Notes: generated by a model from the sequence alone, not told the origin. A stretch of 59,860 nucleotides of DNA from Promethearchaeota archaeon (GCA_019894975.1 JAGXNO010000021.1:1-59860); one strand, 5' to 3'; positions 24,914 to 25,739 are shown, numbered from the stretch's first letter. Made by a program: numbers and translations.

Positions 24914-25182
24914 CTTATTAATAAAATCTTATTTAGTATCCCCTTTGTTAATTCAGGTAGAATTAATCCTAGAACATTAAGTAATCTTCAACGAATTCAT
25001 GAATGGGGTTATAAGATTTTTACTTTTTATAAATATATAAATATCTTACAAGAATAATATGAAATATGAATAAGTGAATTTTTATTACTATAATTCATTA
25101 TTTTCATATTAAATCAAATTAAAAAAAATTTTAATTTCTAAGTATAGATATTTAATATATATTTTTAGTAAGGAGCTTAAAT

Positions 25183-25739
25183 ATGTCAGGGAAGGAACAA
25201 TATAAATTCAAGATAACATTATTCGGTCCAGGCGGAGTAGGGAAGACTTCTCTATTATTAAGGTACATTAAGGATTATTTTAGTGATGACCTTAAAAAGA
25301 CAATAGGAAGCAATTTCCTGATTAAAGATGTGGACATTGATGGCAAAAACGTCCGTTTGCTATTATGGGATAGCTTAATCTAAGATTCTTAGATTGCCCT
25401 AAAATTGGCGGACAACCACAATTTCACAAACTCAGGACCATATATTTTAAGGGTAGCAATGGCGCTTTAGGAGTTTTTGATTTATCGTCTAGTCAGACCC
25501 TTTTAAAAATACCAGGGTGGATTAGCTCTATCAAAAAAACGGTAAAAAAAACCATCCCTATGATTCTATTAGGTAATAAAGTCGATTTGGAGAGAGAAGT
25601 TGAGGTAGAAGAGGCGGAGGATTTAGCACAAAGATTAAGTTGTGATTATTTAGAAACTTCCGCTTTAACTGGTATAAATGTGGAAGAAGCATTTAAGAAG
25701 ATCGCTAGAGCATGTTTACAAGATGTAGGGGTAATATAG
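25183..25739 (+). CDS. Rab-like small GTPase, 174 aa after splicing (exons 25183-25371 and 25404-25739)
   Basis: G1 GPGGVGKT, G2 TIG, G3 WD|IGGQ across the intron, then LRTIYFKG, G4 GNKVD and G5 ETSAL; TAG at 25737-25739. Confidence 0.92.
25372..25403 (+). other. 32-nt bulge-helix-bulge (BHB) intron in an mRNA
   Basis: Central helix UGGG(25366-69)/CCUA(25398-401), 3-nt bulges AUA and AAA, inner hairpin AAUCUAAG/CUUAGAUU, outer helix GUCCGUU/GGCGGAC. Confidence 0.87.

What the first reader, a model, noticed from the sequence alone, without database searches (positions are those of the whole stretch)
25351..25413. BHB-type mRNA intron splitting the G3 motif of an Asgard Rab-like GTPase
Seen in sequence: the ORF from 25183 encodes G1/G2 and LLLWD, then stops at TAA 25381-83. 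The rest of the GTPase (IGGQPQFHKLRTIYFKG..GNKVD..ETSAL) resumes in another frame at 25404. The junction folds into a full BHB: 4-bp central helix UGGG(25366-69)/CCUA(25398-401), bulges AUA(25370-72) and AAA(25402-04), inner stem GC/GC plus AAUCUAAG/CUUAGAUU, and exon-exon helix GUCCGUU(25351-57)/GGCGGAC(25407-13). Established: the archaeal splicing endonuclease EndA cuts after the second nucleotide of each bulge. Applied here it removes exactly 25372-25403 and gives TGG GAT ATT GGC GGA CAA = WDIGGQ and a 174-aa protein. Archaeal mRNA introns are rare; the known case is crenarchaeal cbf5. Inference: a eukaryotic-signature GTPase depends on EndA/RtcB splicing. The unspliced RNA yields a dead 66-aa product, so splicing could act as an on/off switch, conceptually like HAC1/XBP1 non-spliceosomal splicing.
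Basis: partly seen in the sequence, partly recalled or inferred. Interest (0 to 1): 0.95.

Follow-up and report, generated by a model that had tools for sequence, protein, structure and literature searches.

The report
tRNA-type mini-intron in Asgard Rab-like GTPase
A 32-base insert shaped like the introns that archaea cut out of tRNAs splits a Rab-like GTPase gene of an Asgard archaeon. Comparison with about 80 related genes, plus one environmental RNA contig, indicates it is spliced out of the mRNA, which papers document for only one archaeal coding gene (cbf5).

Summary
A Ras/Rab-family GTPase gene (25183-25739, +) is interrupted at 25372-25403 by 32 nt, inside the G3 motif (WD|IGGQ).

About 70 orthologous alleles from the same Asgard (Promethearchaeota) genus are uninterrupted. 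They join exactly at the junction predicted by the bulge-helix-bulge (BHB) cut rule.

Eight diverged alleles from independent assemblies carry a homologous 32-nt insert at the same site:
- The 4-bp central helix and both 3-nt bulges are kept in all eight.
- One intron stem pair occurs as CG, GC, UA and UG.
- Both exons stay under strong purifying selection (dN/dS 0.01-0.09, with dS often saturated).

A metatranscriptome contig about 95% identical to the window lacks exactly these 32 nt. It shares the window's flanking haplotype. No DNA of that lineage could be checked.

The genome encodes a two-subunit-type EndA and RtcB.

Best reading: a genuine EndA/RtcB-spliced mRNA intron (about 0.87). The motif is relaxed on the 3' side. 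The intron is facultative and patchily distributed, and it is linked to an approximately 200-nt recombination tract. The HAC1/XBP1-like switch idea has no support.

This scan has already noted many similar mini-introns on other Asgard DNA and elsewhere in this genome. I found no paper describing them.

The parts
25183..25371 (+). Exon 1 of the Rab-like small GTPase (63 codons: G1 P-loop, G2, up to ...LLLWD)
   Evidence: Translation. Pfam Ras profile 1-54, E 1.7e-14. 100% identical in protein to the first 63 residues of uninterrupted relatives such as P0003.
25372..25403 (+). 32-nt BHB mini-intron. It carries the in-frame TAA at 25381-83. Its length is not a multiple of 3.
   Evidence: Absent, exactly at these borders, from about 70 orthologous alleles. 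Present as a homologous 32-nt insert in 7 other alleles. Unique in the genome. Skipped exactly by an RNA contig.
25404..25739 (+). Exon 2 (111 codons plus stop: IGGQ of G3, NKVD G4, ETSAL G5)
   Evidence: Translation. Pfam Ras profile 57-161, E 2.5e-27. dN/dS 0.01-0.08 between alleles.
25366..25369 (+). Central 4-bp helix H, 5' strand (exon, UGGG). It pairs with 25398-25401.
   Evidence: Paired in 8/8 alleles, with G-C/G.U exchanges on the intron side. Predicted by RNAalifold.
25398..25401 (+). Central helix H, 3' strand (intron, CCUA)
   Evidence: alignment columns 48-51.
25370..25372 (+). 5' bulge AUA. Predicted cut between 25371 and 25372.
   Evidence: Invariant in 8 alleles. Cut rule from PMC2738675. 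The junction equals that of the intron-less orthologs.
25402..25404 (+). 3' bulge AAA. Predicted cut between 25403 and 25404.
   Evidence: Invariant in 8 alleles. The joint 25371|25404 is seen in the RNA contig.
25373..25397 (+). Intron hairpin h'. It comprises 2 bp (25373-74 with 25396-97), a 2-nt bulge, 8 bp (25377-84 with 25388-95) and a 3-nt loop.
   Evidence: 92.5% of cells paired. Pair 25374/25396 occurs as CG, GC, UA and UG. Pair 25378/25394 occurs as AU and GC.
25365..25365 (+). A at position -7, third base of the Leu codon. It pairs with U 25405 and closes the 3' bulge (helix h, 1 bp).
   Evidence: A in 6/6 intron alleles tabulated and 8/8 in alignment A2, against 19/69 intron-less alleles.
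25351..25357 (+). Exon-exon helix, 5' strand. It pairs with 25407-25413.
   Evidence: 7/7 pairs in 5 of 6 intron alleles, against 6 of 69 intron-less alleles. It has more pairs than the nearest intron-less neighbour in each of the six comparisons made.
25407..25413 (+). Exon-exon helix, 3' strand (GGCGGAC, codons of GGQ)
25170..25175 (+). AAGGAG, a possible ribosome-binding site 7 nt upstream of the ATG at 25183
   Evidence: Read in the sequence only. Not tested.

Best explanation
25372-25403 is a genuine 32-nt bulge-helix-bulge intron in the pre-mRNA of a Rab-like small GTPase.

Proposed mechanism:
- The transcript folds so that exon bases UGGG pair with intron bases CCUA. This places a 3-nt bulge on each strand.
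- An intron hairpin lies on one side. On the other side lie a single A-U pair and, further out, a 7-bp exon-exon helix.
- RtcB joins the exons, and probably circularises the intron.
- The ribosome then makes the 174-aa GTPase with an intact WDIGGQ G3 motif.

Shown here: the anatomy, its conservation with compensatory changes, coding constraint on both exons, exact agreement with intron-less orthologs, presence in DNA from independent studies, presence of the enzymes, and one RNA contig that lacks exactly the 32 nt.

Inferred: that EndA and RtcB are the enzymes, and that splicing is constitutive.

The intron is optional in evolution. It is found in 8 of about 80 sampled alleles of one genus, scattered over the gene tree. 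It appears to be exchanged together with about 100 nt of exon on each side by homologous recombination.
For: 1. Exact junction. In about 70 orthologous alleles, exon 1 and exon 2 abut with no gap at WD|IGGQ.

2. Eight distinct alleles carry a homologous 32-nt insert at the same site. They are the window, G064, G054, G004, NCBI GCA_048941405.1, an ENA scaffold, and JGI metagenome contigs of two allele types.

3. Structure.
- 96% of pair cells form standard pairs, against 27-54% when partners are slid.
- The central helix is 100% paired and both bulges are invariant.
- Two pairs show compensatory double changes, and one pair has four pair types.
- RNAalifold finds the BHB core unaided.

4. Selection.
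- dN/dS is 0.02-0.08 among the intron-bearing pairs where it could be computed. In the other pairs synonymous sites were saturated. It is 0.01-0.16 for intron-bearing against nearest intron-less alleles, both exons.
- None of the eight alleles has a second lesion.
- It is the only ortholog in the genome; the next paralog is 44% identical.

5. Exon context tuned to the fold.
- Position -7 is A in 6/6 tabulated intron alleles (8/8 in A2) against 19/69 intron-less.
- The exon-exon helix has 7/7 pairs in 5 of 6 intron alleles against 6 of 69 intron-less, and has more pairs in each of the six nearest-neighbour comparisons.

6. RNA.
- A 452-nt contig of metatranscriptome run X20 joins 25371 to 25404 ('skips 32').
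- It is about 95% identical to the window, and 18 of 22 listed differences are synonymous.
- It shares the window's central tract (0.94). The nearest intron-less DNA relative, L135, has a different tract (about 0.80).

7. Not an artefact. DNA contigs of runs X5 and X7, from other studies, cover the intron/exon-2 junction without a difference.

8. Machinery.
- EndA catalytic subunit on C22. Best PDB hits are chain B of tRNA-splicing endonuclease entries 3P1Z, 3AJV and 2ZYZ (crenarchaeal two-subunit enzymes, by my memory of those entries).
- A second paralog on C55 that appears to lack the catalytic Tyr and His.
- RtcB on C90.

9. Cut rule: PMC2738675.
Against: - No DNA from the sample or lineage of the RNA contig could be laid. 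The contig could come from an intron-less near relative or from DNA in the RNA library. Intron presence does vary between alleles only about 8% apart (L053 against L048).
- Five differences of that contig lie too close to piece ends to be listed, so its bases right at the joint are unknown.
- The 3' half of the motif is relaxed: one A-U pair, and the thermodynamic model disfavours it (-11.1 against -14.7 kcal/mol).
- In the window's own sequence a competing hairpin is 4 kcal/mol better.
- With 8 related sequences the covariation statistics are modest (2 pairs with double changes; 4/500 shuffles reach the score).
- No cleavage assay and no Asgard EndA biochemistry exist.
Confidence: 0.87

Rival explanations
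1. The insert is a disruptive hairpin indel, and the gene is a pseudogene in the lineages that carry it.
For: The unspliced frame stops after 66 aa. Most relatives lack the insert. The genome has more than 30 other small-GTPase paralogs that might buffer a loss.
Against: Eight alleles have diverged to synonymous saturation, yet both exons stay open and under dN/dS 0.01-0.09, with no second lesion. The insert itself has diverged by up to 12/32 nt while keeping its pairs through compensatory changes. Exon synonymous sites are tuned to the fold.
Confidence: 0.03
2. The ribosome passes the 32 nt by translational bypassing or frameshifting (as in T4 gene 60), without RNA cutting.
For: A stable hairpin and a nearby stop codon follow the break, as in gene 60.
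Against: In the window, the only landing that matches the take-off codon is GAU 25369-71 to GAU 25392-94. It would insert three residues into the DxxGQ motif, and it is absent in allele G004 (read). What is conserved is the bulge/4-bp-helix geometry and the exact 32-nt length, which bypassing does not need. An RNA-derived contig lacks the 32 nt.
Confidence: 0.03
3. The 32 nt are removed from the RNA, but by an enzyme or route other than EndA/RtcB. Alternatively, the two halves are made separately and assemble as a split GTPase.
For: No enzymology for any Asgard EndA. The 3' site is not a textbook bulge.
Against: The geometry and cut positions are those of EndA substrates. Both enzymes are encoded. 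32 nt is far too small for a self-splicing intron. Exon 2 has no conserved start codon; the first ATG/GTG/TTG in frame is at 25560. The G3 motif itself would be split.
Confidence: 0.05
4. The insert is an assembly or binning artefact.
For: The genome is a MAG with 8.6% estimated contamination.
Against: The same junction is seen in contigs of runs from three other studies. Homologous inserts occur in seven other assemblies from NCBI, ENA and JGI.
Confidence: 0.01

Closest known systems
BHB intron in the cbf5 (aCBF5 pseudouridine synthase) pre-mRNA of Crenarchaeota (Desulfurococcales, Sulfolobales; Watanabe 2002, Yoshinari 2006, Yokobori 2009 = PMC2738675)
   Same: - A short intron inside a protein-coding frame, in a conserved catalytic motif.
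- A relaxed BHB cut between the 2nd and 3rd bulge nucleotide.
- The host has a hetero-oligomeric, broad-specificity EndA.
- Patchy gain and loss among relatives.
   Different: - A different phylum (Asgard/Promethearchaeota) and a different gene (a eukaryote-signature Rab-like GTPase).
- Only 32 nt.
- Present in a minority (about 10%) of alleles within one genus.
- Presence or absence is coupled to an approximately 200-nt mosaic tract.
- Splicing here rests on comparative data plus one environmental RNA contig, not on cDNA and in vitro cleavage.
Non-canonical tRNA introns of Asgard archaea and Thermoproteales (PMC11291895; bioRxiv 10.64898/2026.10.13.758758)
   Same: The same size class, the same BHB/relaxed-BHB logic with half the motif supplied by exon sequence, and the same presumed enzymes. 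The preprint infers a two-subunit EndA for 44 of its 60 Asgard genomes.
   Different: The host RNA is an mRNA. The exon half of the motif must be built from codons, so synonymous sites carry the constraint. Removal must also restore a reading frame.
BHB intron in a 5' UTR of a Haloferax volcanii mRNA (Schwarz et al. 2020, PMC7714728; listed, not read by me)
   Same: EndA acting on an mRNA.
   Different: That one lies outside the coding frame. Here the frame is broken and must be repaired.
HAC1/XBP1 unconventional splicing (IRE1 cut, RtcB or Trl1 ligation)
   Same: Non-spliceosomal removal of a small frame-changing intron from an mRNA, with RtcB-type ligation.
   Different: A different endonuclease and recognition motif. 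HAC1/XBP1 is stress-regulated, and no sign of regulation was found here. The resemblance is an analogy only.

Membership tests
Archaeal EndA-type (BHB) intron | [quoted passage not shown] | tested here: met
   25370-72 and 25402-04 flank 25366-69/25398-401. The helix is paired in 8/8 alleles and both bulges are invariant. RNAalifold predicts it.
Archaeal EndA-type (BHB) intron | Flanking helices h (exon side) and h' (intron side) that close both bulges (strict hBHBh') | tested here: inconclusive
   h' is present and covarying: 2 bp, a 2-nt bulge, then 8 bp. h is a single A-U pair, followed by a 7-nt / 1-nt internal loop and then a 7-bp exon helix. This is the relaxed class that broad-specificity EndAs are reported to cut (PMC5829648 abstract; PMC12397907).
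Archaeal EndA-type (BHB) intron | Cuts between the 2nd and 3rd bulge nucleotide give the functional mature RNA | tested here: met
   The rule (PMC2738675) removes 25372-25403. The result equals the uninterrupted orthologs codon for codon.
Archaeal EndA-type (BHB) intron | The host encodes the splicing endonuclease and an RtcB ligase | tested here: met
   PF01974 hits at G000:C22 and C55, and PF01139 at C90. The C22 protein is closest to chain B of PDB entries 3P1Z, 3AJV and 2ZYZ. The C55 paralog appears to lack the catalytic Tyr and His (read).
Archaeal EndA-type (BHB) intron | The intron is absent from mature RNA while present in the DNA of the same organism | tested here: inconclusive
   The RNA-library contig of X20 lacks exactly the 32 nt. 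It is about 95% identical and shares the window's central haplotype. DNA of that lineage was not available.
Archaeal EndA-type (BHB) intron | Cleavage by purified EndA at the predicted bonds | not testable with these tools
   Bench experiment.
Ras-superfamily small GTPase, Rab-like | G1-G5 motifs in order and best similarity to Rab proteins | tested here: met
   Pfam Ras matches both halves. NCBIfam small_GTP scores 4e-30, and the best PDB hits are Rab21, Thorarchaeota Rab 7EZB and Rab1B for intron-less ortholog L033.
Translational bypass (T4 gene 60 type) | Matched take-off and landing codons that give the functional protein, conserved among carriers | tested here: not met
   The only GAU..GAU pair in the window would add 3 residues inside G3, and it is missing in allele G004.
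Repeated mobile hairpin element (MITE-like) | Multiple copies in the genome | tested here: not met
   blastn-short search of the 32 nt and the 80-nt region finds only itself in 3.9 Mb.

The most novel reading that the evidence does not exclude
This intron is one member of a genome-wide population of about 30-nt BHB mini-introns in ordinary protein-coding genes of Asgard archaea. They are removed routinely by the tRNA-splicing enzymes. They spread or are erased between alleles by homologous recombination that carries about 100 nt of exon on each side. If so, mRNA cut-and-rejoin splicing would be a normal part of gene expression in the closest archaeal relatives of eukaryotes. A stronger variant is that splicing efficiency is used as a switch for this GTPase. 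My data neither support nor exclude it, and I put it at about 0.1.
Probability: 0.55. Interest if true: 0.9.

Novelty: new member of a known kind. Interest (0 to 1): 0.78.

Why it matters
- In the papers I could search, splicing of a coding sequence by the archaeal tRNA endonuclease is confirmed only for cbf5 in Crenarchaeota. A solid case in an Asgard archaeon, inside a eukaryote-signature Rab-like GTPase, extends protein-gene splicing to the lineage nearest to eukaryotes.
- It shows that exon codons can be recruited to build the splice motif.
- It matters for annotation. NCBI records list the two halves as separate proteins (P0011, P0012), so gene counts and ESP catalogues of Asgard genomes are distorted by such inserts.
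- The presence/absence polymorphism, with its recombination tract, offers a natural system for studying how such introns move.

Tried and rejected
- Single-sequence MFE of the window does not show the BHB. This is explained by a non-conserved competing hairpin.
- A genome-wide scan for strict BHB motifs (h at least 2 bp, h' at least 4 bp) that restore a frame between two abutting ORFs gave 53 candidates. Eight decoy geometries gave 60-88, so there was no enrichment. The listed hits look like ordinary gene boundaries. The scan is uninformative because this intron, and the purA one, are themselves relaxed and fail the strict filter.
- An HMM of the orthologs run against all six-frame ORFs of the genome found no other small-GTPase paralog split in this way.
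- The cdhC check: the CdhC Pfam domain at C131 is uninterrupted, and a loose local scan gave nothing convincing.
- I considered arguing that the RNA contig is identical to the window right at the joint. I dropped this, because up to 5 unlisted differences may lie within a few nt of the piece ends.
- I looked for a called protein carrying the RNA contig's substitutions (T12I and others) among the 120 listed relatives. None was found, so the DNA state of that lineage stays unknown.
- Five of the ten pattern matches in metagenome contigs were unrelated chance matches.

Full report
**Observation.** The window (G000:C89; genome 3.9 Mb, 31.6% G+C) holds an ORF at 25183-25383 of 66 aa ending at TAA 25381-83. 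The remainder of a small GTPase reads in another frame from 25404 to the stop at 25737-39. Pfam Ras covers profile positions 1-54 in the first piece and 57-161 in the second. Removing 25372-25403 (32 nt) therefore gives an uninterrupted 174-aa protein with WD|IGGQ as its G3 motif.

Two refinements apply. First, the 3' bulge is closed on the exon side by one A-U pair only (25365/25405). The 7-bp exon-exon helix lies further out, so the motif is relaxed on that side. Second, the window's own MFE prefers a competing hairpin. That hairpin is not conserved, and the BHB core (central helix, 5' bulge, h') is already in the MFE of 5 of the 6 alleles folded.

**Organism and gene.** Orthologous loci carry record titles of Promethearchaeota/Promethearchaeia (Asgard) MAGs. 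An intron-less ortholog (L033) has Rab21, the Thorarchaeota Rab 7EZB and Rab1B as best solved relatives, and it matches NCBIfam small_GTP. The interrupted gene is the only ortholog in the genome; the next paralog is 44% identical.

**Comparative test.** Searches covered the 54 species genomes of the genus (the window's own included), GTDB contigs, JGI metagenomes and the protein collection. After removing duplicates they gave about 80 distinct orthologous alleles.
- In about 70 of them, exon 1 and exon 2 abut with no gap, exactly at the BHB-predicted junction.
- Eight alleles carry a 32-nt insert at the same site: the window, G064, G054, G004, GCA_048941405.1 (L137), an ENA scaffold (L139) and two JGI allele types (L053/L056, L055).
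- The inserts are homologous but differ at up to 12 of 32 positions.

**Structure.** On the 8-allele alignment A2:
- 96% of pair cells are standard pairs, against 27-54% with slid partners.
- The central helix is paired in all eight, with G-C/G.U exchanges on the intron strand. Both bulges (AUA, AAA) are invariant.
- Intron pair 3-25 occurs as CG, GC, UA and UG, and pair 7-23 as AU and GC.
- RNAalifold predicts the outer helix, the central helix, the 5' bulge and the hairpin unaided.
- The cut rule 'between the second and third residues in the bulges' is stated for cbf5 in PMC2738675.

**Selection.**
- Among the intron-bearing pairs where dN/dS could be computed it is 0.02-0.08, with dS from 0.7 upward. 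In the other pairs synonymous sites were saturated.
- Between each intron-bearing allele and its nearest intron-less relative, dN/dS is 0.01-0.16 in both exons.
- No allele has a second lesion. Exon 2 is therefore still translated in frame in every carrier, which requires removal of the 32 nt.
- Exon synonymous sites are tuned to the fold. The Leu codon before Trp ends in A (the partner of U 25405) in 6/6 tabulated carriers (8/8 in A2) against 19/69 non-carriers.
- The exon-exon helix has 7/7 pairs in 5 of 6 carriers against 6 of 69 non-carriers. It has more pairs in the carrier in each of the six nearest-neighbour comparisons. These sequences are related, so the counts are indicative rather than probabilities.

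**DNA and RNA reads.**
- Contigs of DNA runs from other studies (X5, X7) cover the intron/exon-2 junction without a difference. X1, possibly the source, covers the whole stretch. The insert is therefore real DNA.
- One 452-nt contig of a metatranscriptome run (X20) lies on 25191-25371 and 25404-25673, with a joint that skips exactly the 32 nt.
- That contig is about 95% identical to the window, and 18 of 22 listed differences are synonymous. The next known allele is 88% identical (L135, intron-less) and the next GTDB allele 81%.
- On its own this is ambiguous, because intron presence varies between alleles only about 8% apart (L053 against L048).

**The mosaic tract.** The window, X20 and the syntenic DNA contig L135 are 93-97% identical in the outer parts of the gene. 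From about -99 to +110 around the junction, the window and X20 stay together (0.94). L135 drops to about 0.73-0.87 per 60-nt window (about 0.80 over the tract) and resembles intron-less alleles of other species. X20 therefore carries the haplotype that holds the intron in the window. That makes spliced mRNA the more likely reading, which I put at about 0.75-0.8. DNA of that lineage was not available, and a few differences close to the joint are not listed.

**Evolution.** On a GTR+G tree of the exons, the carriers are not one clade but lie in three well-supported subclades. Near the junction, several carriers are markedly less like their sister non-carrier than in the rest of the gene. Examples are L009/L042 (0.90-0.92 far from the junction, 0.83 or less near it) and L055/L037 (0.89-0.90 far, about 0.82 or less near). 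The window/L135 tract shows the same. I infer that the intron is gained or erased by homologous recombination that carries roughly 100 nt of exon on each side. The direction of each event is not resolved.

**Machinery.**
- The genome has an EndA catalytic-type subunit on C22. Its best PDB hits are chain B of 3P1Z, 3AJV and 2ZYZ, which by my memory are crenarchaeal two-subunit enzymes.
- A divergent paralog on C55 appears, by eye, to lack the catalytic Tyr and His.
- RtcB is on C90.
- This is the two-subunit architecture that the literature links to relaxed BHB substrates (PMC5829648; PMC12397907). A 2026 preprint infers it for 44 of its 60 Asgard genomes.

**Rivals.**
- Pseudogene: contradicted by selection and by compensatory change.
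- Translational bypass: no conserved take-off/landing pair gives a functional G3 motif.
- Artefact: excluded by independent assemblies.
- Repeated element: excluded, because the 32 nt are unique in the genome.
- The HAC1/XBP1-like switch: unsupported, since most orthologs do without the intron.

**Known and new.**
- The papers I could search confirm archaeal coding-sequence splicing only for cbf5 (PMC2738675).
- The same searches list an EndA-substrate survey in Haloferax (PMC7714728, not read by me) and papers on heavy tRNA interruption in Asgard archaea. None describes BHB introns in Asgard protein genes.
- This scan's own earlier notes report many such mini-introns in other Asgard genomes and elsewhere in this genome.
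- I checked one of them. purA at G000:C86 near 62894-62926 carries a 32-nt insert inside its SWG|DEGKGK motif, with a GGGG/CCCU helix and an AAA 3' bulge.

The case is a new member of a known kind. It is well supported comparatively and has suggestive RNA evidence.

Noticed in passing
G000:C86:62880-62935 (not in the window): purA is interrupted in its P-loop-like motif (SWG | DEGKGK) by a 32-nt insert. It has a GGGG/CCCU central helix, an AAA 3' bulge, and the same ...CCCUAA|A 3' end as the GTPase intron. Its h' begins with an A.A mismatch, so it also fails a strict BHB filter.
   Followed up: partly
window 25273-25513 compared with L135:3091-3299: An approximately 200-nt tract around the intron is 13-27% divergent per 60-nt window (about 20% overall) from the closest syntenic relative, which is intron-less. 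The gene's outer parts are 93-97% identical and the 6.5-kb region 91%. This is a recombination mosaic coupled to intron presence or absence. Similar local drops are seen for L009/L042 and L055/L037.
   Followed up: partly
whole genome G000: ARAGORN finds only 16 tRNA genes (6 with introns of 9-30 nt) in a genome scored 95% complete. It finds none in the 60-kb window. This fits reports that Asgard tRNA genes are so interrupted that standard finders miss them.
   Followed up: no
P0011 (G064 contig JBHLNR010000017), P0012 (GCA_048941405.1, L137:1280-1836), L139:153-709: Public annotations call the two halves of intron-bearing alleles as separate proteins, with starts placed inside or at the end of the intron. 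One gene caller even read the intron's TAG as Gln. The split is therefore hidden in protein databases.
   Followed up: partly
G064:C163 (L034) and G064:C313: One MAG holds two copies of this ortholog. One carries the intron and one does not (90% and 87% protein identity to the window). This suggests a mixed-population bin or contamination.
   Followed up: no
L100 (DATKTW010000171.1): A contig labelled 'Candidatus Nanopelagicaceae bacterium' (Actinomycetota) carries an ortholog of this Asgard GTPase, nearly identical to L098. It is probably a mis-binned Asgard contig. Submitter phylum labels within this one GTDB genus also vary (Hodarchaeota, Hermodarchaeota, Thorarchaeota, Odinarchaeota, Promethearchaeota).
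   Followed up: no
G000:C33:26981-27259: An orphan 93-aa ORF matches only the C-terminal half (profile 84-166) of a small GTPase. No N-terminal half lies upstream on that strand, so it looks like a gene remnant rather than an intron case.
   Followed up: partly
G000:C88:51412-52086: A 225-aa ORF matches the GTPase profile in permuted order: positions 57-160 first, then positions 3-57. It could be a circularly permuted GTPase or a fusion of two partial genes.
   Followed up: no
L016 (G024:C73): This ortholog shows a 10-residue longer alignment in exon 1 and an open frame of only 162 aa. It may hold an in-frame insertion or a different start; I did not examine it.
   Followed up: no
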